Below the pieces are notes generated by a model. It did no database searches. It saw nothing but the letters and a program-made list of their open reading frames with translations, and was not told where the DNA came from. A program made the position numbers and the translations under genes. Shown piece by piece: positions 1 through 34,404 of a stretch of DNA of 64,000 nt. The DNA is from a bacterium HR35 (GTDB taxonomy: Bacteria; Patescibacteriota; Minisyncoccia; UBA6257; HR35), in assembly GCA_002898235.1 (NCBI GenBank), contig BEIL01000004.1, forward strand, positions 499 through 64,498, written 5' to 3'. Position 1 is the stretch's first letter. Every line of letters starts with the position of its first letter.

Positions 1-227
1 TTTTTAACAAGATGTGGTTTTAAGCAATAAATATAAAGTTTATAATTTTTACTTCTTCTTAGAAATCCATTAACTTTAAGTTCAGATAACAAATTTCTAA
101 AAGCATCATTGTCTAATTCAAATTCAAATACAGAATATTGTACTCTCTCGCCATATTTTTCTAAAATTCTTACTAATCTATTTCTAATTTTATTTTCGGA
201 TATATCATAAGATATTATATATCTCAT
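1..227 (-). CDS. cas2: CRISPR-associated endoribonuclease Cas2, N-terminal part only; the gene runs off the window start
   Basis: The reverse strand from the ATG at 225-227 translates MRYIISYDISENKIRNRLVRILEKYGERVQYSVFEFELDNDAFRNLL..., matching the Cas2 N-terminal signature (YDIS...R..v.k.L..yG.RVQySVFEc). There is a 4-nt ATGA start/stop overlap with the cas1 stop. It is absent from the ORF track because the window edge truncates it. Confidence 0.8.
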   Translation of the reverse strand, partial: MRYIISYDISENKIRNRLVRILEKYGERVQYSVFEFELDNDAFRNLLSELKVNGFLRRSKNYKLYIYCLKPHLVK

Positions 228-1204
228 ATTGAACCTCTCATGTTTAATGGGACATAATTTTCTAATTCTCCAATAAGAGTTTTTGCAAGTATTCTTATTT
301 GATATAAAGATAATTCGTTTAATGTTAGTTTCTCTTTAAATTGTTTTATATAGAATTGTTTTTTATACCACCAGTCTAACCATTCCTTAATAAAAAATGC
401 TCTCGGCTTTTTCTTTAAAAAATAAACACCGTAATAATTTTCAAAATCTTCTTTTTTTATCCTTCTATTATTAATAAGATTAAGTACTAATTTATCCACT
501 GCAATTGGTCTGAATTCTTCCATCATATCAAGAGCTAATGACGGTCTTCTGTAGTTTATTTCATGATAAAAACCCATAAAGGGATCTAGGCCAACTAATA
601 AAATATTAGTTATTATTTTTGATACTAATAAAACATAGCCATAACTTAATAAAGAATTTATTTCATCTCTAGGAGGATTTTTCGTTCTATGAATAAAATT
701 AAAATCTTTGTTTTTTATTATTGAAGCAAACTTTAACCAATAAGATTGGGCAATTGTTCCCTCAATGCCTAAAATACTATTTTTTGAATATAACCCATTT
801 AATTCAACTTCTGGTAAATTTGCTTTTTTATCAATAGATTTCAAAACCCAAAGTTGGCTATTTCTTTTACCCATAACTATAGCCTTGGAGAAATTTAAAA
901 CAAAATTTAAATCTAATCTTTTTTTATATTGTGATTCTCTTAAAAAAATATTTTTACTGTTACCACTAAAATATGATCCATAATATTTGCCGTTTTTATT
1001 TATAAAGTAAATAGGTATTTTTAATTTAGAACACAGCTTCAAAAAACTAGGCTTTATATTATTATCTATATGCAAAATAATATCCTGAATTAAATTTGAT
1101 GGTAAAGTTTTTATTAAATCTTTTTTATTATAAATTCTAAATTGAAAATTATTTGCCGCAACTGTTTTATCTTTTTCCAAAATAACTAAAGTTTTTTTAT
1201 CCAT
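224..1204 (-). CDS. cas1: CRISPR-associated integrase Cas1
   Basis: The 326-aa product contains GLDPFMGFYHEINYRRPSLALDMMEEFRP, the conserved Cas1 active-site block (GLDP..G.lH....gR.SL..DlME.FR). It lies between cas4 and cas2 on the same strand. Confidence 0.9.
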   Translation of the reverse strand: MDKKTLVILEKDKTVAANNFQFRIYNKKDLIKTLPSNLIQDIILHIDNNIKPSFLKLCSKLKIPIYFINKNGKYYGSYFSGNSKNIFLRESQYKKRLDLNFVLNFSKAIVMGKRNSQLWVLKSIDKKANLPEVELNGLYSKNSILGIEGTIAQSYWLKFASIIKNKDFNFIHRTKNPPRDEINSLLSYGYVLLVSKIITNILLVGLDPFMGFYHEINYRRPSLALDMMEEFRPIAVDKLVLNLINNRRIKKEDFENYYGVYFLKKKPRAFFIKEWLDWWYKKQFYIKQFKEKLTLNELSLYQIRILAKTLIGELENYVPLNMRGSI

Positions 1205-1223: not shown

Positions 1224-1814
1224 TTAATGATAAATCATCGAAGGTATACTGTCTACATAAAAGTAAGAACATCCCTTTTTCTTACATCCGTTTATTTTAT
1301 TATTAAAATCAATATTTTTTATTAATTCTCTAAATTCATTAATTTTTTTAACGGCATAATCTTTCAGAAATTTATTGATTATTACTTTTTTTCTTTTGTT
1401 AATTTTGTAAAAATATATATAACCAAAATCAATTTCTTTTTTTAGCATCTCTTCTAGACATAGAGACTGTAAGGTTAATTGTATTTTATGGAAAAAGTTT
1501 ATTCGTGGGTAACCAGCTTTATATTCAATAGGGATTGTTAAGTTTTTATTGACTTCAACTAAATCACAAAAACCAAAAATTTTATATTTGTGATTAAAAA
1601 CTAACATATTCTTCAATTGTTTCTTATTTTCTCTATATTTGATGTTAATCTTATTTAAATTCTTATGATACAATGAACCTTCATATAAAAAAATATTATT
1701 ATCATCATTTTCCCAACCTAAAAGCATATATAATCCTGCTTTAGGACAATAACAGTATTCTGCTATTGTTTTTATTGGCAAATAATTATCTACAAAAAAT
1801 TTAATTTCTAACAT
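1224..1814 (-). CDS. cas4: Cas4 RecB-family exonuclease. The track ORF 1224..1859 begins at a TTG, and the likely true start is the ATG at 1812-1814 (MLEIKFFVDNYL...).
   Basis: It has an N-terminal Cys cluster (CYCPK), a DLVE motif, an EYK (ExK) nuclease motif, and a C-terminal GCKKKGC cysteine pair, which is the usual Cas4 layout of one N-terminal and three C-terminal Cys plus RecB motifs II/III. The 45-nt upstream extension of the track ORF is a GC hairpin, which is unlikely to be coding. Confidence 0.75.
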   Translation of the reverse strand: MLEIKFFVDNYLPIKTIAEYCYCPKAGLYMLLGWENDDNNIFLYEGSLYHKNLNKINIKYRENKKQLKNMLVFNHKYKIFGFCDLVEVNKNLTIPIEYKAGYPRINFFHKIQLTLQSLCLEEMLKKEIDFGYIYFYKINKRKKVIINKFLKDYAVKKINEFRELIKNIDFNNKINGCKKKGCSYFYVDSIPSMIYH

Positions 1815-1827
1815 TTTAATCCGAAAT

Positions 1828-1857
1828 GAAAACCCCGCCTTACGTGGCGAGGTTTTC
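1828..1857 (-). terminator. GC-rich hairpin immediately upstream of the cas4 ATG. It is either an intrinsic terminator/attenuator between effector and adaptation genes, or part of a small RNA.
   Basis: On the minus strand it reads gaaaacctcgcc-acgtaa-ggcggggttttc, then atttcgg. That is an 11-12 bp stem with one mismatch and a 6-nt loop, followed by a U-rich tract. It sits between the effector stop (2032) and cas4. Confidence 0.45.
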
Positions 1858-1890
1858 AACCTTCCTTTTACAATCTATACTCTTTTTGCA

Positions 1891-1967
1891 ACCGGTTTTT
1901 GCCGGTGACCGGTTTTTTGCCGGTGACTGACTGAGGTTGCTAAAACCAAACTAACCCAACCTCAGTC
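1891..1967. repeat. Intergenic structured element: two direct copies of accggttttt(t)gccggtg followed by a perfect 11-bp-stem hairpin (gactgaggttg / caacctcagtc at 1929-1939 and 1957-1967)
   Basis: Read directly from the sequence. It is unusually GC-rich for this genome and lies between the Cas12-like gene and cas4, which makes it a candidate small RNA (for example a tracrRNA-like transcript) or a terminator cluster. Confidence 0.4.
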
Positions 1968-2031
1968 AATCATATTAATTATAGCACAAAAAATATAAAA
2001 AATCAATGCTTGCCTTTTTAATAAAAATTAT

Positions 2032-4488
2032 CTAAAAATCGTACTTTCTTGCTATATTTATTGCTCCAACTACATCCGCCTCTTCTTCATATCCACATTT
2101 TAAACATTTAAATTTATCTCTACTAATTCTGGGAGTAACTGTCTTAAAATATTCTAAGGCTTCTTTTAAATTATTTTGCTCAATTAGTTCTTTAATTTCG
2201 TCTAATTTAATATTTTTAGGATATTTGTTTAAATAACAAACCCAATGTTCTGGTAAATTTATTTGTAAACTACCAATTAAAAATTTTTTATTATCCAAAT
2301 CTATAGATTTTTCTTTTATCAAATTTTCAAATTGTTTTAAAGTTAAACCATCTAATATCTTCCTTTTAATATCTGCATTGAAGTTAAACTCACAATTTGG
2401 ACAAATAATTGATGTATCTTTTGGATCTACAAATTTTAATAAATATTTTTTAGGTAAATTAGCATATTGTAAGGCTAACTCAAGAAACTTTTCAATTTTT
2501 CTATAAACCCGCTTAGCAATAATTTTTTCTTCTTTGCCAAATCCTTTTCTTAAATTTTCCATAACAATTATTGCTGGATAATTACTTAAAATTTTTAAAA
2601 TTTTAGAAATGGATTGATGAAGAATAGTTTCTTGCGTTCTTAAAATCCTATTGCCTATTTTTTTCTTCTTTCTTTTTTTATGTAATTCTTCAAGTTTTTC
2701 AGCAAATTCTTTACCTAAAATGCCTTTTTCATTTCCAACCACCTTTTTGTCTTTATCTAAAACCGCATAAGCAATTGGATATTTCTCTCCCCTATCAATC
2801 CCTAAAACATAACTAATTTTATTTTTTATACTATCTTCAATAATATTGGTTATATCTCCGTTGTATTCAAAGGTAATATCAACATAATATTCAAATTTAT
2901 CACCGGGTTTGTTTTTAACTCTTTTCACTCTGGCGTTAGCAGGAAAAAATTTATTTTTAGATTCGCTTAAAAATCCCCATTCTTTATGAAACAATATTCT
3001 TCTTAAATAAGATTTACCGTGATACAACCAAAAATAACAAGAATAAGGATCTTTATCTTTCTCTAAATGACCTGAGATTAATTTGTATTCTTTGGGTTTT
3101 CTTTGTGATTTTTTTCTAGAACCGCCGGTTAATACAATGAAGTAAAAATCTTTATTATGGTCATTTTTTAAACAAAATGCTTTGGTTGAAATACCTAAAG
3201 TTATTCCTAATTGATGTTTTTCTTTTTGATTATCTTTATCGATTTTTAAAATTAAAGCCCCAGCTTTTAAAGGTTTATTATCTTTCCAACCGAAACCAGA
3301 GATTATAAAAGAGTCTTTAACTGGTTTTCCTTTCAAAAATTCTGCTTTAATTTTGGTTATTTCATTATTTATCTCATTTAAAGTTTCTCCTCTTTTTTCT
3401 TCCGGTAGACTAGAAACATATAAAATCTCGGTTAAGAAAAATAGGGTATTAAAGAATTTATTTCTACCCTGCCAATCAAATGGTTTTTTAAATAAATGCT
3501 TTTTTTGTTTTTCTAATTTATTAAATAAAGCTTTAATTATATTTTCTATGGATTCACTGCTTCTTTTTGTAATATACCAATATAAAAATCTATCTTTCAA
3601 CGCACTTGACTTCTTTTTTCTATATTTTAATTTTTTCAAAAGCTGTTCTCCTTTTTCTTGTAAATATTTAGATATTACGTCCTCCTGCTGTTTAATATCA
3701 ATTCTTTCTTTTTTGAGATTATATCTATCCTCAAAGCTATTAAGTAAGTATTTAAGTCTGTCTTTAAATTCTTCTTTAACTTTTTTAATATTAAATTCTA
3801 AATTATTTCTATTTTTAAAATCATCAAGATTTTGGTATTTTTCTATCAAAGGAAACGAGGGTAGTCTTTTTAAATTAGAGATAGGCCTTTTCTTTTTCAG
3901 ATTTCTTTCTTTATTAATTTCAGCGATAAGAGTATTAAATTCTTCAGTTAAATTTTTTGCTGTTTGCCAGGTCTCATAATTTTGAATACTTAATTTTTTA
4001 TATTCTTCTATTAAACCTTGAATTAAAGTTTTTTCTGAATCGTCTAAATCTTTTCTTTCTAAAATTTTTCCAACTAATCTTTTATTATCATAGAAAGCTT
4101 TTTGCGTATTAGTTACAAAACTATTAAGTACAGATGATATTTCTGTTCTAATTCCTTCTTCAACTTTTGAAGTTAAAATCTTATAGGTATTTTTAAATTT
4201 TTCAAATCTTTTTTTATTTTTATAAATCCAATCATAACCTAATTTTTTGTTAATAAATAAATTTAATTCGCCTGCCTTAAATTCCTCGTATAAATCTTTT
4301 AAATGTAAATATTTTATTTCAGAAATTTCTTCAAACCACTTATCTAAAATTTCTCTATCTTCTCCTTTGGGAAATATTCTAAAAGAAACGGTTCTAGATA
4401 AATTTTTAGGCAACAAGATGGTTTCATAAGCACTTCTTAAATCTTTTATTACTTGAAGAAATTTTATTTTATCTTTATTCTGGGTCAT
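2032..4488 (-). CDS. cas12: Compact type V CRISPR effector of the Cas12 family (818 aa); subtype unassigned
   Basis: RuvC-I is VLGIDRGEKYPIAYAVLD (D565, codon 2794-2796). It is followed by an Arg/Lys-rich bridge-helix-like segment. RuvC-II is AIIVMENLRKGFG (E644). A split zinc ribbon is formed by CPNC (C696/C699) and CLKC (C795/C798). RuvC-III is EADVVGAINIARKYDF (D805). An N-terminal SRTVSFRIFPKGED block resembles the Cas12a WED-I motif (SKTLRFELiPqGKT). The gene sits immediately upstream of cas4-cas1-cas2 on the same strand. Confidence 0.8.
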   Translation of the reverse strand: MTQNKDKIKFLQVIKDLRSAYETILLPKNLSRTVSFRIFPKGEDREILDKWFEEISEIKYLHLKDLYEEFKAGELNLFINKKLGYDWIYKNKKRFEKFKNTYKILTSKVEEGIRTEISSVLNSFVTNTQKAFYDNKRLVGKILERKDLDDSEKTLIQGLIEEYKKLSIQNYETWQTAKNLTEEFNTLIAEINKERNLKKKRPISNLKRLPSFPLIEKYQNLDDFKNRNNLEFNIKKVKEEFKDRLKYLLNSFEDRYNLKKERIDIKQQEDVISKYLQEKGEQLLKKLKYRKKKSSALKDRFLYWYITKRSSESIENIIKALFNKLEKQKKHLFKKPFDWQGRNKFFNTLFFLTEILYVSSLPEEKRGETLNEINNEITKIKAEFLKGKPVKDSFIISGFGWKDNKPLKAGALILKIDKDNQKEKHQLGITLGISTKAFCLKNDHNKDFYFIVLTGGSRKKSQRKPKEYKLISGHLEKDKDPYSCYFWLYHGKSYLRRILFHKEWGFLSESKNKFFPANARVKRVKNKPGDKFEYYVDITFEYNGDITNIIEDSIKNKISYVLGIDRGEKYPIAYAVLDKDKKVVGNEKGILGKEFAEKLEELHKKRKKKKIGNRILRTQETILHQSISKILKILSNYPAIIVMENLRKGFGKEEKIIAKRVYRKIEKFLELALQYANLPKKYLLKFVDPKDTSIICPNCEFNFNADIKRKILDGLTLKQFENLIKEKSIDLDNKKFLIGSLQINLPEHWVCYLNKYPKNIKLDEIKELIEQNNLKEALEYFKTVTPRISRDKFKCLKCGYEEEADVVGAINIARKYDF

Positions 4489-4986
4489 ATATCTTTATTT
4501 TACCAAAAATTTGCTTATTTTATCATAAGATCCTTTATTTAAAATAAAAAAAATTTTAAGATTTTATTTATCGAAACTAAATTTTAATTTAAAATTTACC
4601 TTTTTTAAACTTTACCTAAAACAACTGCGTTGTTTATTTTACTGTTTTTGATAGATTATGAATTATAATAAACTTATGGAGCTTGAAAAGATACATTGTG
4701 TACCGTGTGAGGGAGGGGTGCTGGCGTTGAGTGATGAAAAAGATAGATAAAATTTTAGAGTAAAAACTTTTTTATTTCTCAATTACTTCTTTTAAAACAA
4801 TAGCATTATTGTGGTCAGTATCTTTGGCTGAAAAAAGGAGGGTAAGTGTTTTGTGTTTCTTTTCTAATTTTTTGATTTGATTAATTAAATTTTTCTTCTC
4901 TTTTAGTTCTTGTTTGTATTTCTTTTTGAATTCTTGTATCAATTATTTCTATCAATTTTTAATCCCAGCTATTTTAATTATAAAAT

Positions 4987-6933: not shown

Positions 6934-6940
6934 CTTTTCT

Positions 6941-7387
6941 GTGTATTCACGGACTTTTTCGGACTTAACACGGACTTTACGGACAACACTGACTCAATCG
7001 GACTGAACACAGACTTATCGGACATGTTCATTTTGTCAGTTCTGTCCGTGTATGGTCCGTGTTCAGTCTGTGTATTCACGGACTTTTTCGGACTTAACAC
7101 GAACTTTACGGACAACACTGACTTAATCGGGCTAGACACAGACTTATCGAATATGTTTATCTTGTCCGTTCTGTCCGTGTATGGTCCGTGTTCAGTCTGT
7201 GTATTCACGGACTTTTTCGGACTTAACACGGACTTTACGGACAACACTGACTTAATCGGACTGGACACTAGCTGTTCGGACTGATTAACCGACCAAATCA
7301 GACTTAATACAGACTAATCGGACTTATCGTTATCTTGTCAGTTCTGTCCGTGTATAGTCCATACCTGTCCGTGTATAGTCCGTGTTA
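6941..7387. repeat. GC-rich tandem repeat: two near-identical 129-bp units (6941-7069, 7070-7198) plus a diverged and extended third unit
   Basis: Direct reading: gtgtattcacggactttttcggacttaacacggactttacggacaacactgac... recurs with a few substitutions. Each unit is built from cggac/gtccg words at roughly 10-20 bp spacing and contains the inverted pair gtccgtg...cacggac. GC content is far above the local background. Confidence 0.85.
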
Positions 7388-7696
7388 TTATAACAATAAT
7401 TGAAAAATTATTGAAATCAAAATCATTAAAAGAAAATTAATTATCAATCCTTGATAAGGAAAAATTTTGCCTTGCCGAAGCTGAATAATTTTTTTACTAA
7501 TTGAAGGTGAAATTAAAATTATAATTCCGCCAATAATTGAACCAAGTAAAAATTTATCATAAACATAAGTTCGATTAAATAAACTTCCATAATCACCAAA
7601 CAAATAAAGATAAAAAGAACCAGTTTCATAGAAATAAAGTTTTAAAGGAAGAACAATTGAAAAAAAAGAAATAAGAATTGAAGCACAATCTATAAT
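7388..7696 (-). CDS. Possible small membrane protein. The track ORF 7388..7801 extends N-terminally through the structured RNA, and that extension (MIQKRFALDSSPEAHSPRSADAHTSAGMSLRRNRF) is probably not translated.
   Basis: Only the C-terminal ~100 aa are hydrophobic and protein-like. The first ~35 codons coincide with the GC-rich hairpin RNA. Confidence 0.25.
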   Translation of the reverse strand: MIDCASILISFFSIVLPLKLYFYETGSFYLYLFGDYGSLFNRTYVYDKFLLGSIIGGIIILISPSISKKIIQLRQGKIFPYQGLIINFLLMILISIIFQLLL

Positions 7697-7810: not shown

Positions 7811-7993
7811 CTACCACCCTAACGCTACACTAAATCCTCCAATCCAAATTCCAATTACTGACGACTTCATTCCCAATTCTTTAACAATCAAAGCGCCGAT
7901 CCCTGCTCCAGCAGTACACAACGGACAATGAGCAAAAACAAATAATGGAATTAAAAATAAAATTAATAAAATCAAAACTAACGAGCTTTTCAT
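7811..7993 (-). CDS. Small secreted/membrane protein with a CPLC...AGAGIG motif
   Basis: 60 aa with a signal peptide followed by AHCPLCTAGAGIGALIV. It is a paralog of the N-terminus of the 26867..27346 product (AVCPVCIAGVGIGLGLS). Confidence 0.4.
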   Translation of the reverse strand: MKSSLVLILLILFLIPLFVFAHCPLCTAGAGIGALIVKELGMKSSVIGIWIGGFSVALGW

Positions 7994-8244
7994 TTTTTAT
8001 AAACATCTTTCCTATGACCAATTTTTAAAATAATTATTTTATCTCCATCAACATCAAAAAGTACTCTATAATCACCGATCCTAAGACGATATTCGCCTAA
8101 TCTTGAATCAACTAATTTTTCTGCATAAAGTAAAAAATTTTGTTGTGAGCTATAATATTTTAATTTCTTTAAAATCCTTTTTCTAATGTTAACATCTAAT
8201 TTTTTAAGATCTCGATAGGCTCCTTCTTTAAAATAAATTTTCAT
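7990..8244 (-). CDS. Type II toxin of the RelE/ParE superfamily
   Basis: 84 aa (...YRLRIGDYRVLFDVDGDKIIILKIGHRKDVYK). It shows the RelE/ParE signature (rlRvGdyRiiy......i.il.igHRkdvY). Its start overlaps the upstream antitoxin stop by 4 nt. Confidence 0.75.
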   Translation of the reverse strand: MKIYFKEGAYRDLKKLDVNIRKRILKKLKYYSSQQNFLLYAEKLVDSRLGEYRLRIGDYRVLFDVDGDKIIILKIGHRKDVYKK

Positions 8245-8441
8245 AAATTATGCTCTTTCAGGACTTTTTCTAATGGAATTAATTTTTTAGATTTTCTTCT
8301 CTGATTAATTATTCTTCTTAAGTTTTTCGAACTTAACATTTCTAAATCTTCAATAAATTTTACCCAATCTTTTAAAGACAAAATTACTTTCCGCTCGCTA
8401 ATCTTATATTTAGGAATTTTAATCAAATCTTTTGTGGCCAT
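8241..8441 (-). CDS. Cognate antitoxin (small DNA-binding protein)
   Basis: A 66-aa basic protein encoded immediately upstream of the toxin and overlapping it, which is the usual antitoxin-toxin operon arrangement. Confidence 0.55.
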   Translation of the reverse strand: MATKDLIKIPKYKISERKVILSLKDWVKFIEDLEMLSSKNLRRIINQRRKSKKLIPLEKVLKEHNL

Positions 8442-8499: not shown

Positions 8500-8625
8500 T
8501 ATAATTGATGCTATTATCCGCGTAAATCAGCGTTATAATAATCAGCGTATCTCAGCATATAAGGAAAATATCCGTATAAATCCGTTTAATAATCCGTGTA
8601 AATCAGTGTTCATATCTCCATAAAT
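8500..8625. promoter_or_regulatory. Cluster of four direct repeats (minus-strand consensus CnGATTTACrCGGAT) lying 60-190 bp upstream of the antitoxin-toxin operon
   Basis: The plus strand reads tatccgcgtaaatcagcgtt / aatcagcgtatctcagcat / atatccgtataaatccgttt / aataatccgtgtaaatcagtgtt. Likely roles are operator or iteron-like binding sites. The half-sites loosely resemble DnaA boxes (TTATCCgcg, aTATCCgta). Confidence 0.35.
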
Positions 8626-9083
8626 ATTCCTTTATCTTCTCCATTTTTGACTGAATGAATTTTGAAAGGATAGATTTTAAAACCTGGCATTCCGGGTGAA
8701 CCTGAGGGCATTCCTGGTAAAGCAATACCATCAATATCTGGCTTTTCAGTTAAAAGTTTTTGAATTGCTTCAATTGGAACATGACCTTCGATAAAATAAT
8801 TTCCTAATAAAACAGTATGACATGACCAAAGACCTTGAGGAATTCCAAACTGATTTTTTATTTTTATTAATTCTTCATCTGAAACTTCATTGACTTTAAC
8901 ATTAGCACCATTCATTTTTAAATAGCCAATATATTCTTTGCAACAACCACAAGTTGGTGTTTTATAAACAACAAATTCTAAACCAGATAATTTTGATTCT
9001 TTAAATGGAGTTTTCACTAAACTATAAATCGCTCCAACCAAAATTATGCCAATTATTATTCCAAAAATTAAATTTTTATTCAT
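8610..9083 (-). CDS. DUF411/CopG-like periplasmic metal-binding protein
   Basis: 157 aa with a signal peptide, a CGCC motif (TPTCGCCKEY), and a GMPSGSPGMPG motif. This is the layout I recall for the copper-associated DUF411 family. Confidence 0.5.
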   Translation of the reverse strand: MNKNLIFGIIIGIILVGAIYSLVKTPFKESKLSGLEFVVYKTPTCGCCKEYIGYLKMNGANVKVNEVSDEELIKIKNQFGIPQGLWSCHTVLLGNYFIEGHVPIEAIQKLLTEKPDIDGIALPGMPSGSPGMPGFKIYPFKIHSVKNGEDKGIFMEI

Positions 9084-9086
9084 TTT

Positions 9087-10217
9087 TTATAAGCCACATC
9101 CTCCGCCTGTTGAAGGAATATTTGGCACATTAGCTAATTTTTTCTCGACGTTTTGAATATAACCTGAAATTGATGAAAACTTTGCTGACATAATCTCTTT
9201 GACCTCGGATATGGACGGATCATTAAACGGATTTTCACGGATATTTTTATCGATTTGTGTTAAAGGCCAATCTTTACCTTCAACTAATTTTTTATATAAA
9301 GCAATTTTTATATAATTTTGAGGAAACCAAAACGAATTAAGCTGTAAAGCTAATTTATAAAGTTCATCTTCAGAATAACCTTGAGAGGCAGCAAGTTCTA
9401 AAGCACCAAGTAAAGCTGAGCCATGATTACAATCTTGAGCAAAAGTTGAATTATTACAACAGGGACGGAAAGTATTTTGAGCAACTCGATAAACAATTTC
9501 TTCTTGTTCAGGAGTTAATTTTATAATTTCACATTTATTAAAATATTCAGCACCATTATCTTTTTTACCTAACCACCAACCACCAGTTGAAGCTAAATAA
9601 GGAAGTTCTTTCTCAGAAAAAGGAATATTTTTATTAAATTCAGTTTTGTTTGAAAGTCCTAAAGGCCAAAAAAGAGTTAAAAGATGATTAGCGGTTTCTT
9701 GATTGATAACAATCGGCTCGTTTGACCCATCAATTGTCTTTTGAATATATTCAGGAATCTTGCCATTATATAATTTTTTCATTTTTTCTAAATCGATCAC
9801 CCCACAATCAATCATTTTTTTAACTGCATCACCAAAAACTATTCTTGTTTTAAATCCTTCTTGTGGTAAAACTTGGGAAATAATTTGTTGAATTAATTCA
9901 TTATTAACTGAATTATTAGAGTTAGACAATTTAAGAAACTTGAAATTAGCCAAAACGAAAATAGCCAATCCCCCAATTAAAATACCAATTAAAAGTTGTT
10001 TTAAATTAAGTTTTTTTGAATTATTCTCATCTAAATTATTTCGTTTTTCTTCATTGATTTGTAATTTAATAGCCTGTTTTACTATCTCTAAATTGCAATT
10101 TTTATATTTTTTACACCAATCTTCACATTCCTTTGCTAATACTTCATTTTCATAAACATGTTGACATTCTTCACATTGATAATAATTTTTATTTTCTCTT
10201 TGAATTATTTTAACCAT
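9087..10217 (-). CDS. Hypothetical protein with an N-terminal CxxC zinc ribbon (YQCEECQHVYENEVLAKECEDWC), one TM segment and a Cys-containing C-terminal domain
   Basis: 376-aa ORF embedded in the copper gene cluster. No family was recognised. Confidence 0.4.
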   Translation of the reverse strand: MVKIIQRENKNYYQCEECQHVYENEVLAKECEDWCKKYKNCNLEIVKQAIKLQINEEKRNNLDENNSKKLNLKQLLIGILIGGLAIFVLANFKFLKLSNSNNSVNNELIQQIISQVLPQEGFKTRIVFGDAVKKMIDCGVIDLEKMKKLYNGKIPEYIQKTIDGSNEPIVINQETANHLLTLFWPLGLSNKTEFNKNIPFSEKELPYLASTGGWWLGKKDNGAEYFNKCEIIKLTPEQEEIVYRVAQNTFRPCCNNSTFAQDCNHGSALLGALELAASQGYSEDELYKLALQLNSFWFPQNYIKIALYKKLVEGKDWPLTQIDKNIRENPFNDPSISEVKEIMSAKFSSISGYIQNVEKKLANVPNIPSTGGGCGL

Positions 10218-10218
10218 C

Positions 10219-10833
10219 TTATTCTTTTTTAATTTCGTTTCTTAATTTTTTAATTAAATAAGCTATACCTAAAACAAACAAAATTAAAACTAAAATTGGA
10301 AAAGTTAAAATTATCAAAAGCCATAAAAGACCTAAAATAGCAAAAATCGGTGCTAAAACATTCCAACCCCTCCAATTACTAAAATTCCACCACCAATAAC
10401 CCATTCCTGGTTGTCCCCAATTCATCATCATTGGTCCCATCATCGGCATCATAAACCCTTGAGAATTTACATTTGGATCACAACCCAAAAATCTTTTTCC
10501 CATATTAATATGCATTAACTCTTCTCCTTCCTTACCATGCATCTCTTCTATCATTTTATTCATTGTTAAATGATCACTACCACCAACCATTTGCTCCATT
10601 ACATATTCGCCAACTGAATGAAAGTCTTCATTAGTTAAATCTTGACATTTAATTTCACCTCGAGAAAATTTTTCCACTAATTCCCTACCCTTTTGAATTT
10701 CAGCATTAAGTTCAGCATCCTCAGTATGAGCAAAAACAAAACTTAAAGAAAAAAGAATTAAAAACGCAAAAAATAATACTTTACTAATTTGTTGTCTTTT
10801 ATAATGTATTCGTTGTAATTTTTGATTAATCAT
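10219..10833 (-). CDS. Secreted/membrane Met- and His-rich protein, a putative copper-binding protein
   Basis: Signal peptide, a MMPMMGPMMMNWGQPGMGYWWWN Met-rich stretch, a C-terminal TM segment. It is co-operonic with csoR (4-nt overlap). Confidence 0.45.
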   Translation of the reverse strand: MINQKLQRIHYKRQQISKVLFFAFLILFSLSFVFAHTEDAELNAEIQKGRELVEKFSRGEIKCQDLTNEDFHSVGEYVMEQMVGGSDHLTMNKMIEEMHGKEGEELMHINMGKRFLGCDPNVNSQGFMMPMMGPMMMNWGQPGMGYWWWNFSNWRGWNVLAPIFAILGLLWLLIILTFPILVLILFVLGIAYLIKKLRNEIKKE

Positions 10834-11099
10834 TTTCTTTTTGCTAATTTATAAATTTTTAAGATTTCTTTAACTGCGACCTCTTCTTTTTTATTTTTAA
10901 ATTGTTCTTTAACATGTGTTTTTAAGTGATTTTCTAAAATTAAATCTTCAATTCCTGATAAAGCATTTTTAACTGCCATTGATTGAATTAAAATATCAAC
11001 ACAATATTTATCATTTTCAATCATATTCCTCAATCCTTCAATTTGCCCCTTAATTATATTCAATCTTCTTAAAATTTTTATTTTTAATTCTTTATTCAT
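10830..11099 (-). CDS. csoR: CsoR/RcnR-family copper-sensing transcriptional repressor
   Basis: 89 aa. The sequence LRRLNIIKGQIEGLRNMIENDKYCVDILIQSMAVKNALSGIEDLILENHL carries the CsoR fold signature, including the Cys and His metal ligands (C...H...C pattern). Confidence 0.75.
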   Translation of the reverse strand: MNKELKIKILRRLNIIKGQIEGLRNMIENDKYCVDILIQSMAVKNALSGIEDLILENHLKTHVKEQFKNKKEEVAVKEILKIYKLAKRK

Positions 11100-32451: not shown

Positions 32452-34404
32452 ATGTCAGAAGAATTTAAACCAGGAGGGTTTTTAAAGAAAAGATATTGGG
32501 GATTTGAAGATTTTAGAAATGCGGTAGCAAGAGCAAGTAAAAGAAAAATAGGTAAAATTCTTCCTAAGCCTGAGGAGCAAATTCCTCATTATATTCAAAG
32601 GATTATAGATATTTTAAAAAAAGAAAGGGGCAAGGAATTATTTAAAAAACAAATACTTTATAAAAGATTTATTATTAAACCCGAAAGGATACCAGAAGAC
32701 TATTTTAAAAATGTTTTATTAGGCAATTTTGCTGAAAGATTAGGATATACAAGAGAACAATTAAAAGATCCCCAAATTAGACAAGCTGTAATTAAGCTAT
32801 TTGAAGAGCGAACAGGTCAATCTTTTGAAACTTATCAAATTCCAAAAGAAGAAAAAGAACAATTAATCCAACAAATAATTGAAGATCAAAAAAGAAGTTT
32901 AGATAGATGGTTTGATTATTTAACTTCTCCTGAGGCTGAAAATTATCCTCCTGAATTTAGATATTGGGTTTTTGCTGAAGTTTTAGGATGCGGAAATTAT
33001 GATGAAGAAAGAAAAGAATACAATGAGAGAACAAAAACAACAGTTGCTCCTTTTCCTGAACTTAATTCTCAAGCTTTAGCTTTATTAATTAATGAACTTA
33101 TTAGAAAAGAACAAAAAAAACCGTCGGGGTTAATTAATTTAACTGAAGAACAACGAAAAGAATGGCAAAATCTCATTCATTTTTCAAATGGTATTGTTCC
33201 TAGAGTAGCGATAGTTTTTAATAGAGATTTAAATCAAATAACTGAAATAAGAGGAATTGCAAAGGGTCAAAACCTGGATCCATATATTGCTCCTATTGTT
33301 GAAGAAGCTTTAACTGAAGGATTAGAAATAGAAGGAGAAAAAAGAAAACTTGCTGGTTCAGAAAGATATCTCAGGGCAGCTCAAGATATGAGGAGATTAG
33401 CTGAAATTTATATAAAACATTTACAAAAGCAGGAATTAACATCTGAAGAACTAAGATTTTTGTATGAAATAGATAGAGAAATAATAGGATTTGGTTATGA
33501 AAGAGATCCGAGGATAGAAGAAATTTTAAGAGGGCGAGATCTTGAAAAAGATTTAGCTAAAATTTTTGATTGTAGGGAAGATCAAATTGCTTTAGAAGCT
33601 GATAAAGTTACAGATGAAACAGTTGTTTTATGGGGAGATTTTACTTCTAAAATAGCACAAACGTGGACGAAGTTTCCTAATAATTTAAAATTTATCAGAG
33701 GAGATGCTGATTTTAGAAATTCACAAGTAGAAGATTTAGGGAATTTAAGAAGAATAGGTGGAAATGCTTATTTGGGAAATTCAAGAATTAAAACATTAAA
33801 AAATCTAGAAGAAATTGGGGGGTATGTTTATTTTGCAAATTCACAAGTAGAAGATTTAGGGAATTTAAGAAGAATAGGAAGATCTGTCACTTTTGTGAAT
33901 TCAAGAATCACAACACTAAACAATCTAGAAGAAATTGGAGAAGATGTTGATTTTAGAAATTCACAAGTAAAAGATTTGGGGAATTTAAGAAGAATAAGAG
34001 GGTCTGTTATTTTTGCGAATTCAAAAATCACGACATTGAAAAATTTAGAAGAAATTGGGGGATATGCTAATTTTAGAAATTCACAAGTAGAAGATTTGGG
34101 GAATTTAAGAAGAATAATGGGGGATGCTATTTTTACGAATTCAATAATTAAAACATTAAACAATTTAGAAGAAATTGGGGGATATGCTGGTTTTGAAAAT
34201 TCACAAGTAGAAGATTTAGGGAATTTAAGAAGAATAGGGTGGAACGCTTATTTTGGAAATGCACCAATAAAGAATTTAGGTAGGTTAGAAGAAATAGGTG
34301 GAAGCTGTTATGTAAGTAAAGAAAACCAAGAATTGATAAAATTATTAGAAGAAAGGGGCTTTGGCAATAAAATAATAATATACACAATAAAATATACACA
34401 ATAA
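32452..34404 (+). CDS. Large protein with an N-terminal domain of unknown function and at least 8 C-terminal BspA-type leucine-rich repeats
   Basis: 650 aa. The C-terminal 23-aa repeats follow the pattern F.NSQVEDLGNLRRIGG.A.F / .NS.I.TL.NLEEIGG.V.F. Confidence 0.6.
   Translation: MSEEFKPGGFLKKRYWGFEDFRNAVARASKRKIGKILPKPEEQIPHYIQRIIDILKKERGKELFKKQILYKRFIIKPERIPEDYFKNVLLGNFAERLGYTREQLKDPQIRQAVIKLFEERTGQSFETYQIPKEEKEQLIQQIIEDQKRSLDRWFDYLTSPEAENYPPEFRYWVFAEVLGCGNYDEERKEYNERTKTTVAPFPELNSQALALLINELIRKEQKKPSGLINLTEEQRKEWQNLIHFSNGIVPRVAIVFNRDLNQITEIRGIAKGQNLDPYIAPIVEEALTEGLEIEGEKRKLAGSERYLRAAQDMRRLAEIYIKHLQKQELTSEELRFLYEIDREIIGFGYERDPRIEEILRGRDLEKDLAKIFDCREDQIALEADKVTDETVVLWGDFTSKIAQTWTKFPNNLKFIRGDADFRNSQVEDLGNLRRIGGNAYLGNSRIKTLKNLEEIGGYVYFANSQVEDLGNLRRIGRSVTFVNSRITTLNNLEEIGEDVDFRNSQVKDLGNLRRIRGSVIFANSKITTLKNLEEIGGYANFRNSQVEDLGNLRRIMGDAIFTNSIIKTLNNLEEIGGYAGFENSQVEDLGNLRRIGWNAYFGNAPIKNLGRLEEIGGSCYVSKENQELIKLLEERGFGNKIIIYTIKYTQ
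33690..34270 (+). repeat. Intragenic near-identical tandem DNA repeats (138-bp period made of two 69-bp sub-units) encoding the LRR units
   Basis: aattcacaagtagaagatttagggaatttaagaagaata... recurs about 5 times with only a few substitutions. Confidence 0.8.

What the first reader, a model, noticed from the sequence alone, without database searches (positions are those of the whole stretch)
2032..4488. Effector domain map: Cas12a-like RuvC motifs, a roughly 550-aa N-lobe, and a zinc ribbon split by a ~95-aa insertion
RuvC-I is GIDRGE (D565), RuvC-II is IVMENL (E644), and RuvC-III is DVVGAINIARK (D805). All three catalytic acidic residues are present, so the nuclease looks active. The RuvC-I to RuvC-II spacing (79 aa, with a Lys/Arg-rich bridge-helix-like segment) matches Cas12a. 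The Nuc/target-strand-loading region is short, about 160 aa. It is built around C696-x2-C699 ... C795-x2-C798, so the two CxxC halves of the TnpB-type zinc finger are about 95 aa apart. In TnpB/Cas12f they are adjacent. An N-terminal block SRTVSFRIFPKGED resembles the Cas12a WED-I motif (SKTLRFELiPqGKT, recalled from memory). The N-terminal lobe before RuvC-I is only about 560 aa, against about 880 in Cas12a. This implies loss or miniaturisation of the REC2 and/or PAM-interacting domains. The architecture sits between TnpB-like minimal effectors and Cas12a.
Basis: partly seen in the sequence, partly recalled or inferred. Interest (0 to 1): 0.8.

Follow-up and report, generated by a model that had tools for sequence, protein, structure and literature searches.

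The report
Known compact CasX (Cas12e) nuclease gene

Summary
The protein is not Cas12a-like. It is a type V-E effector, Cas12e/CasX: it scores 792 bits against the NCBIfam Cas12e equivalog (cut-off 200) and 1398 bits against a PADLOC Cas12e model, and the seven best Foldseek hits in the PDB are all CasX/Cas12e structures.

D565, E644 and D805 align with the catalytic triads of PlmCasX (659/756/922) and VemCas12e (576/662/837). The "split zinc ribbon" is the family's normal TSL domain. C696, C699, C795 and C798 align with PlmCasX C810, C813, C912 and C915, which hold a zinc ion in the solved structure.

The small size has two main causes: the roughly 95-aa NTSB domain is absent after residue 77, and the roughly 43-aa C-terminal tail is missing.

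The protein is 100% identical to GenBank GBD34782.1 (bacterium HR35, labelled "Cpf1"). That organism's Cas12e, HrbCas12e, was characterised by Li et al. (Nat Commun 2024), who place its tracrRNA between cas12e and the adaptation genes. I find a tracrRNA candidate in that position.

Verdict: observation confirmed, interpretation partly supported, already known, low interest.

The parts
2032..4488 (-). cas12e (casX) gene, 818 aa. 100% identical to GenBank GBD34782.1 of bacterium HR35, so very probably HrbCas12e.
   Evidence: ORF. NCBIfam NF045604 at 792 bits against a cut-off of 200. PADLOC Cas12e at 1398 bits. 100% identity to the NCBI entry. Foldseek top 7 hits are all CasX/Cas12e.
4357..4398 (-). 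Residues 31-44, SRTVSFRIFPKGED: first beta-strand of the OBD (WED-equivalent) domain.
   Evidence: Beta-strand 31-38 in the AF2 model. R32, T33, S35, F36, I38 and P40 are invariant in the clade. It aligns with KTLVVRI / RTVKFKV of other Cas12e.
4171..4272 (-). Residues 73-106: Lys-rich loop at the site where long Cas12e carry the NTSB domain, which is absent here.
   Evidence: MAFFT places 95-111-aa insertions of the 961-990-aa Cas12e after residue 77. The model shows coil and short helices for 73-106. Li et al. describe NTSB-lacking Cas12e with a positively charged Loop 1 at this site.
3337..4362 (-). Residues 43-384: helical REC lobe (Helical-I, a linker with the conserved LKRLPSFPLIEKY, then Helical-II).
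   Evidence: All-helical in the model. LKRLPSFPL aligns with PlmCasX LQRLKGFPSFPLVER. Domain boundaries are inferred.
2863..3321 (-). Residues 390-542: OBD-II beta-barrel.
   Evidence: Beta-strands 390-542 in the model. The region aligns with VemCas12e 407-560.
2422..2811 (-). Residues 560-689: RuvC-I, a Lys/Arg-rich helix and RuvC-II. Catalytic D565 is at 2794-2796 and E644 at 2557-2559.
   Evidence: Pfam RuvC_1 covers 549-675. D565 and E644 align with Plm 659/756 and Vem 576/662, which are Ala in the dead mutants.
2089..2421 (-). Residues 690-800: TSL (target-strand-loading) domain framed by the tetra-Cys zinc ribbon. CPNC is at 2392-2403 and CLKC at 2095-2106.
   Evidence: The Cys align with PlmCasX C810/C813/C912/C915 and Vem C729/C732/C827/C830. 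Zinc coordination in PlmCasX is described in PMC12562720. The Pfam TNB profile is matched in two stretches. pLDDT is 88-94 for this region.
2035..2088 (-). Residues 801-818: RuvC-III with catalytic D805 (2074-2076). The protein ends here, without the 40-58-aa tail of other Cas12e.
   Evidence: D805 aligns with Plm 922 and Vem 837. The C-terminal insertions of other Cas12e relative to this protein are shown.
1829..2006 (-). tracrRNA gene candidate. Promoter-like -35 at 2006-2001 and -10 at 1983-1978. Scaffold stem at 1969-1927 with conserved GTTTTAG at 1946-1940. Two small hairpins at 1925-1891. Anti-repeat TTGTAAAAGGAAGGTTG at 1873-1857. Terminator hairpin at 1856-1829.
   Evidence: Promoter scan. 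Fold z = -7.1. The 17-nt anti-repeat is complementary to the first CRISPR repeat seen at the end of L001. Relatives L002 and L003 have the same position, and their anti-repeats co-vary with their own repeats. Li et al. place the Hrb tracrRNA between cas12e and the adaptation genes.
1224..1814 (-). cas4 (196 aa from the ATG at 1814).
   Evidence: Pfam Cas_Cas4 and TIGR00372. Logan gene call.
224..1204 (-). cas1.
   Evidence: Pfam Cas_Cas1 at 6e-72 and TIGR00287.
1..227 (-). cas2: the first 75 of 93 codons, running off the window start. The CRISPR array lies about 190 nt beyond the window start.
   Evidence: Translation. The full gene with a PF09827 hit is in L001 at 4702-4983, and the first repeat starts near L001 5119.

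Best explanation
This is the effector of a type V-E CRISPR-Cas system: a compact Cas12e (CasX) without an NTSB domain, from the uncultivated "bacterium HR35" (GenBank GBD34782.1). It is very probably the HrbCas12e of Li et al. 2024.

How it most likely works. The locus reads cas12e, tracrRNA, cas4, cas1, cas2, CRISPR array. The tracrRNA is transcribed from the 217-nt spacer between cas12e and cas4. It pairs with the CRISPR repeat through a 17-nt anti-repeat and a conserved GUUUUAG element. The dual RNA loads into Cas12e. The OBD and Helical-I domains read a T-rich 5' PAM. A Lys-rich loop, in place of the NTSB domain, helps open the duplex. After R-loop formation, the single RuvC site (D565/E644/D805) cuts first the non-target strand and then the target strand. 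The TSL domain delivers the target strand; it is an insert of about 95 aa clamped at its base by the zinc ribbon C696/C699/C795/C798.

What is shown here: family membership, the catalytic and zinc-site homology, the absence of the NTSB domain and of the C-terminal tail, and the tracrRNA candidate with its co-varying anti-repeat.

What comes from the literature: guide-dependent dsDNA cleavage, plasmid interference in E. coli and a T-rich PAM for the bacterium HR35 enzyme.

What is inferred from PlmCasX/DpbCasX structures: the order of strand cleavage and the role of the TSL domain.
For: NCBIfam Cas12e/CasX equivalog matches at E = 8e-238, 792 bits against a cut-off of 200, covering residues 27-816 against model positions 1-885 of 886. 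A PADLOC Cas12e model matches at 1398 bits over the full length.

The catalytic and Cys residues map onto the Plm and Vem catalytic and zinc residues. The zinc site is described in PMC12562720 and the dead-mutant positions in PMC11685505.

The protein is 100% identical to GBD34782.1 of bacterium HR35. HrbCas12e is named, located and tested in PMC11685505, and the tracrRNA position matches what I find.

cas4, cas1 and cas2 lie downstream. Relatives have the same gene order plus arrays of 37-nt repeats.
Against: I could not read the HrbCas12e sequence in the paper, because its supplement is not held. The identification therefore rests on the organism name, on there being a single Cas12e cluster from that organism, and on the matching tracrRNA position.

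The CRISPR array itself lies outside the window, and only the first 29 nt of one repeat were seen.

Sequence similarity of the helical N-lobe to solved Cas12e structures is not significant on its own. Correspondence there rests on the full-length family profiles and on the predicted fold (pLDDT 79, pTM 0.55).

Confidence: 0.94

Rival explanations
1. One reading: a Cas12a-like effector, or an evolutionary intermediate between TnpB/Cas12f and Cas12a, with a miniaturised REC2/PI region.
Against: Cas12a similarity is confined to about 150 residues of RuvC. The full-length Cas12e models score 792 and 1398 bits. The protein has a tetra-Cys zinc ribbon and TSL domain homologous to CasX; from general knowledge, the Cas12a Nuc domain has none. 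The locus encodes a tracrRNA, whereas Cas12a is tracrRNA-independent. The size difference from long Cas12e is explained by the NTSB and tail indels.
Confidence: 0.03
2. A transposon-associated TnpB/Cas12f-type nuclease, in line with relative P0005 being labelled 'transposase', that merely sits next to cas genes.
Confidence: 0.01
3. An artefact: two genes fused by a frameshift or misassembly, or a decaying pseudogene.
For: None found.
Against: An independent assembly gives the identical ORF. Six colinear homologues of 824-862 aa show conserved residues throughout codons 300-450: W304, H331, D338, N374, K386-G387-K388 and others. The family profiles match in a single stretch.
Confidence: 0.01

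Closest known systems
HrbCas12e (bacterium HR35 Cas12e; Li et al., Nat Commun 2024, PMC11685505)
   Same: Same organism. The window protein is 100% identical to the only Cas12e of that organism in the protein collection (GBD34782.1). The tracrRNA gene lies in the same unusual position, between cas12e and the adaptation genes.
   Different: Nothing detectable. The only gap is that I could not compare against the sequence printed in the paper's supplement.
VemCas12e and LesCas12e (PDB 8XYC, 8Y2I), NTSB-lacking Cas12e
   Same: Same domain order without an NTSB domain. The catalytic triad and four Cys are at equivalent positions (Vem 576/662/837 and 729/732/827/830). A positively charged loop sits at the NTSB site. 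The size class is similar (880 and 899 aa).
   Different: Foldseek reports only about 16-18% identity. In those loci the tracrRNA lies between cas2 and the array. HR35 is about 60-80 aa shorter and lacks their C-terminal tail.
PlmCasX/DpbCasX (Cas12e prototypes; PDB 7WAY, 6NY1-3)
   Same: Same OBD, RuvC and TSL domains and the same zinc ribbon. Both use a tracrRNA and have a cas4-cas1-cas2 adaptation module.
   Different: They are 978 and 986 aa. They carry a roughly 95-aa NTSB domain after the equivalent of residue 77 and a roughly 43-aa C-terminal tail, both absent here. The helical lobe is very divergent in sequence.
Cas12a (Cpf1)
   Same: Bilobed type V architecture. Cas12a has the next most similar RuvC segment in both sequence and fold searches. 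Both have an N-terminal WED/OBD beta-strand motif and a T-rich 5' PAM.
   Different: Cas12a is about 1200-1300 aa with a PI domain and larger REC lobes. It needs no tracrRNA. Its Nuc domain lacks the tetra-Cys zinc ribbon. No full-length Cas12a model matches this protein.

Membership tests
Cas12e / CasX (type V-E) | Full-length match to curated family models above their threshold | tested here: met
   NF045604 equivalog at 792 bits against a cut-off of 200, residues 27-816 against model positions 1-885 of 886. PADLOC PDLC01668 at 1398 bits, residues 2-818 against positions 1-776 of 776.
Cas12e / CasX (type V-E) | Fold and domain order: OBD, Helical-I, Helical-II, OBD, RuvC, TSL, RuvC | tested here: met
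Cas12e / CasX (type V-E) | RuvC catalytic triad D/E/D at the family positions | tested here: met
   D565/E644/D805 align with Plm 659/756/922 and Vem 576/662/837.
Cas12e / CasX (type V-E) | TSL domain inserted in a tetra-Cys zinc ribbon between RuvC-II and RuvC-III | tested here: met
   C696/C699/C795/C798 align with Plm C810/C813/C912/C915, which bind zinc (PMC12562720). They are invariant in the clade. Cys-Cys distances in my own model could not be measured.
Cas12e / CasX (type V-E) | tracrRNA-dependent dual-RNA guide | tested here: met
   The structured RNA gene candidate (z = -7.1) carries a 17-nt anti-repeat. The anti-repeat co-varies with the repeat in three loci. Function with an sgRNA is reported in PMC11685505.
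Cas12e / CasX (type V-E) | Adjacent adaptation module (cas4, cas1, cas2) and CRISPR array | tested here: met
   cas4, cas1 and partial cas2 are in the window. Only the first repeat of the array was seen, beyond the window. Full arrays are present in relatives L002 and L003.
Cas12e / CasX (type V-E) | NTSB domain (present in the prototypes; not required, according to Li et al. 2024) | tested here: not met
   The 95-111-aa insert of long Cas12e after residue 77 is absent. The paper defines an NTSB-lacking type within the family, so this does not exclude membership.
Cas12e / CasX (type V-E) | T-rich 5' PAM and staggered dsDNA cleavage | not testable with these tools
   PMC11685505 reports this for five of the six new orthologues, and reports interference in E. 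coli for all eight systems tested.
Cas12a (Cpf1, type V-A) | Full-length family model match, including the REC and PI domains | tested here: not met
   Only RuvC_1 and the Cas12a models match, and only over residues 529-675. No NCBIfam Cas12a hit.
Cas12a (Cpf1, type V-A) | tracrRNA-independent single crRNA guide | tested here: not met
   A tracrRNA candidate with an anti-repeat is present and conserved.
TnpB / Cas12f | Family model above threshold, with a compact contiguous zinc finger | tested here: not met
   guided_TnpB scores 18.5 bits against 100, and Cas12f2 scores 37.9 against 450. The TNB profile is split into two stretches about 95 aa apart.

The most novel reading that the evidence does not exclude
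The most novel reading not excluded concerns the Patescibacteria-type clade of Cas12e to which this protein belongs. It comprises about a dozen 50%-identity clusters of 816-911 aa. It might be a functionally distinct sub-branch of type V-E. Its distinguishing features would be a relocated tracrRNA gene, repeats ending in CACUAAAAC, no NTSB domain and, in HR35, no C-terminal tail. If so, its minimal scaffold would define what is dispensable in CasX beyond what Li et al. described. The source may be a hot environment, which might also mean unusual temperature behaviour; that origin is from memory and was not checked here.
Probability: 0.1. Interest if true: 0.3.

Novelty: already known. Interest (0 to 1): 0.08.

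Why it matters
It matters little as a discovery. The protein is deposited as GBD34782.1. Standard CRISPR typing profiles class it as Cas12e. The Cas12e of this organism has been expressed, shown to cleave DNA with an sgRNA, assigned a PAM, and patented as a genome-editing tool.

The practical value here is corrective. The GenBank label 'Cpf1', and the label 'transposase' on a relative, are wrong at family level. The 'split zinc ribbon' and the small N-lobe are ordinary Cas12e traits (the TSL domain and the NTSB-less type), not signs of a new architecture.

Tried and rejected
1. The genome-contig scan with the clade alignment did not return the HR35 contig, only two relatives. The HR35 CRISPR array could therefore not be read beyond the first 29 nt of one repeat in the Logan contig.

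2. The supplement of PMC11685505 is not held, so there was no direct comparison with the published HrbCas12e sequence.

3. A second word-indexed homologue search with the alignment returned the same six proteins. The exhaustive representative search was needed to see the wider family.

4. hhalign of the clade profile against one long Cas12e aligned only the C-terminal half. The profile search of the PDB likewise aligned only from about residue 407 onward. N-lobe homology to solved structures therefore rests on the full-length family models and the fold searches.

6. Rfam has no family for the tracrRNA; there were only two sub-threshold chance hits.

7. Model coordinates are not exposed, so Cys-Cys distances could not be measured. 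I used homology to the solved PlmCasX zinc site instead.

8. The CasX structure papers PMC6662743 and PMC9189900 are not held.

9. The fusion or frameshift idea was rejected.
Full report
**Observation.** The window has an 818-codon ORF at 2032..4488 on the minus strand.
- GIDRGE starts at residue 563, so D565 is correct.
- IVMENL starts at 641, so E644 is correct.
- DVVGAINIARK starts at 805, so D805 is correct.
- SRTVSFRIFPKGED starts at residue 31.
- The only two CxxC motifs are C696-PN-C699 and C795-LK-C798.

D565 to E644 is 79 residues and E644 to D805 is 161 residues.

**Family.** The protein is a Cas12e (CasX), not a Cas12a-like form.
- The NCBIfam equivalog model for Cas12e/CasX (NF045604) matches residues 27-816 against model positions 1-885 of 886. 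The score is 792 bits against a curated cut-off of 200, with E = 8e-238. TnpB and Cas12f2 models fall far below their cut-offs.
- A PADLOC Cas12e model matches end to end at 1398 bits. Cas12a models match only residues 529-675.
- Pfam sees only a RuvC_1 domain (549-675) and the 60-position Cas12f1-like TNB zinc-ribbon profile, the latter matched in two separate stretches.
- Against PDB sequences, the only hits are dVemCas12e (8XYC), dPlmCasX (7WAY), DpbCasX (6NY1) and dLesCas12e (8Y2I).

**Structure.** I built an AlphaFold2 model from the six-member clade alignment. It has mean pLDDT 78.9 and pTM 0.55.
- Its block order is: an N-terminal beta-strand (31-38), a long all-helical region (43-384), a beta-barrel (390-542), RuvC strands and helices (560-689), a mixed alpha/beta insert (703-781), and a beta-hairpin plus helix (792-815).
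- In Foldseek against the PDB, the seven best hits are all CasX/Cas12e structures, with E from 1e-22 to 3e-16. Cas12a follows at about 1e-14.

**Catalytic site and zinc ribbon.** I parsed the HMMER alignments residue by residue.
- D565, E644 and D805 fall on PlmCasX 659, 756 and 922, and on VemCas12e 576, 662 and 837. These positions are alanine in the deposited dead mutants. Li et al. state D576A/E662A/D837A for dVemCas12e. PMC12562720 gives D659/E756/D922 as the CasX2 triad.
- C696, C699, C795 and C798 fall on PlmCasX C810, C813, C912 and C915, and on Vem C729, C732, C827 and C830.
- PMC12562720 describes those four PlmCasX cysteines as coordinating a zinc ion tetrahedrally, forming a zinc ribbon that flanks the TSL domain core at residues 822-898.
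- The "zinc ribbon split by about 95 aa" is therefore real, but it is the standard TSL (target-strand-loading) domain of Cas12e with the same spacing as in other family members.
- All seven of these residues are invariant in the clade.

**Why the protein is small.** I aligned the clade with longer Cas12e proteins recovered by the exhaustive profile search. A 990-aa Dpb/Plm-like protein differs from the HR35 protein mainly in two places:
- a 95-aa insertion after residue 77;
- a 43-aa extension after residue 818.

The first site is where the prototypes carry the NTSB domain. Two smaller loops of about 10 aa also differ. The 961-aa and 973-aa proteins show 111-aa and 104-aa inserts at the same site.

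At that site HR35 has a Lys-rich loop, FINKKLGYDWIYKNKKRFEKFKNTYK. Li et al. describe NTSB-lacking Cas12e proteins that use a positively charged Loop 1 there to help open DNA. The compactness is therefore absence of the NTSB domain plus a missing tail, within an architecture that never had a Cas12a-type PI domain. It is not a reduction of Cas12a REC2 or PI.

**Not a fusion artefact.** An independent Logan assembly of run DRR101367 carries the identical ORF. Six homologues at 44-66% identity and 824-862 aa are colinear over the whole length, with invariant residues throughout codons 300-450.

**Identity.** The protein is 100% identical to GenBank GBD34782.1, "CRISPR-associated endonuclease Cpf1 [bacterium HR35]", on a 66,983-bp contig. 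NCBI lists the organism as an unclassified bacterium.

Li et al., Nat Commun 2024 (PMC11685505), mined NCBI with a Cas12e HMM and named six new orthologues, including "bacterium HR35 Cas12e (HrbCas12e)". They report the following:
- similar domain arrangements across the orthologues, except for the NTSB counterpart;
- T-rich PAMs for five of the six, the exception being Plm2;
- sgRNA-guided dsDNA cleavage;
- plasmid interference in E. coli for all eight systems tested;
- a granted patent that covers HrbCas12e.

I could not read their supplementary sequences. Equating the window protein with HrbCas12e is therefore a strong inference rather than a direct comparison.

**Surroundings.** Downstream on the same strand lie cas4 (1224-1814), cas1 (224-1204) and the start of cas2 (from 227, running off the window).

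The 217-nt spacer between cas12e and cas4 carries the following:
- a promoter-like TTGATT-17-TATAAT with an upstream TG (2006-1978);
- a strongly structured RNA: -62 kcal/mol, z = -7.1, and none of 200 shuffles folds as well;
- a 17-nt stretch, TTGTAAAAGGAAGGTTG (1873-1857), followed by a GC-rich terminator hairpin (1856-1829).

That 17-mer is exactly complementary to CAACCTTCCTTTTACAA. This sequence occurs about 135 nt downstream of cas2, at the very end of the Logan contig, where the first CRISPR repeat should start.

Two relatives have the same gene order: a Patescibacteria MAG (L002) and a Microgenomates MAG (L003). They carry arrays of 37-nt repeats ending in CACTAAAAC. In each, the cas12e-cas4 spacer carries an anti-repeat that matches that locus's own repeat, 22 nt with one mismatch in L002 and 20 nt in L003. 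All three loci share a GTTTTAG element, complementary to the CTAAAAC at the 3' end of the repeats seen in L002 and L003. They also share a first stem that keeps its pairing through compensatory changes.

[quoted passage not shown] Rfam has no matching family.

**How common is this type.** The exhaustive profile search found 16 cluster representatives at E <= 1e-30. Twelve full-length representatives at E below 1e-60 are 816-911 aa long. More distant Cas12e proteins of 845-1082 aa follow. After those come many proteins of about 1200-1300 aa that match only profile positions of roughly 535-693, the RuvC segment, as expected for Cas12a. A Cas12e of 818 aa is therefore typical of its clade.

**Mechanism.**
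- Shown here: family membership, an intact catalytic triad, a zinc site homologous to the solved one, the absence of the NTSB domain, the tracrRNA candidate and the adaptation genes.
- From the literature: guide-dependent cleavage and interference.
- Inferred from CasX structures: the dual RNA loads the protein. OBD and Helical-I read the PAM. The basic loop assists unwinding. The single RuvC site cuts the non-target strand and then the target strand, with the zinc-anchored TSL domain presenting the target strand.

**Verdict.** The object is already known, and interest is low.

Noticed in passing
window 6938-7400: A non-coding block richer in GC than its surroundings. A 129-nt unit is repeated 2.6 times at 93% identity and is itself built of short CGGACTT / ACGGAC-like sub-repeats. 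The ORFs on both strands have no Pfam hit. Its origin and function are unexplained.
   Followed up: partly
window 7990-8441 (-): A ParE-family toxin gene (84 aa, PF05016 at 2e-10) overlaps a 66-aa upstream ORF by 4 bases. This is probably a type II toxin-antitoxin pair, about 3.5 kb from the CRISPR-Cas locus.
   Followed up: partly
window 8610-11099 (-): A cluster that looks metal-related: a DUF411 protein, a Cys-rich DUF7128-like protein, a Met/His-rich membrane protein and a CsoR/RcnR-type metal-sensing repressor (PF02583).
   Followed up: partly
window 33700-34302: A coding tandem repeat with a 60/120-nt period, about 10 copies, giving a repeated GYA.F.NSQVEDLGNLEEIG-like peptide unit. This is probably a repeat-domain surface protein.
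   Followed up: no
window 2032-4488 and L002 9980-12568: Public annotations are wrong at family level. The HR35 protein is deposited as 'Cpf1', and its 862-aa relative P0005 as 'transposase'. Both are Cas12e.
   Followed up: yes
window 1815-1859: The mechanical ORF list starts cas4 at a TTG at 1859, which would overlap the tracrRNA terminator hairpin. The Logan gene call uses the ATG at 1814 (196 aa), which looks more plausible.
   Followed up: yes
L002 14897-15478; L003 5050-5745: The relatives' CRISPR arrays have 37-nt repeats with a shared 3' end, CACTAAAAC. Spacers are about 33-46 nt, longer than the roughly 20-nt guide segment used by CasX, which suggests trimming during crRNA maturation.
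   Followed up: no
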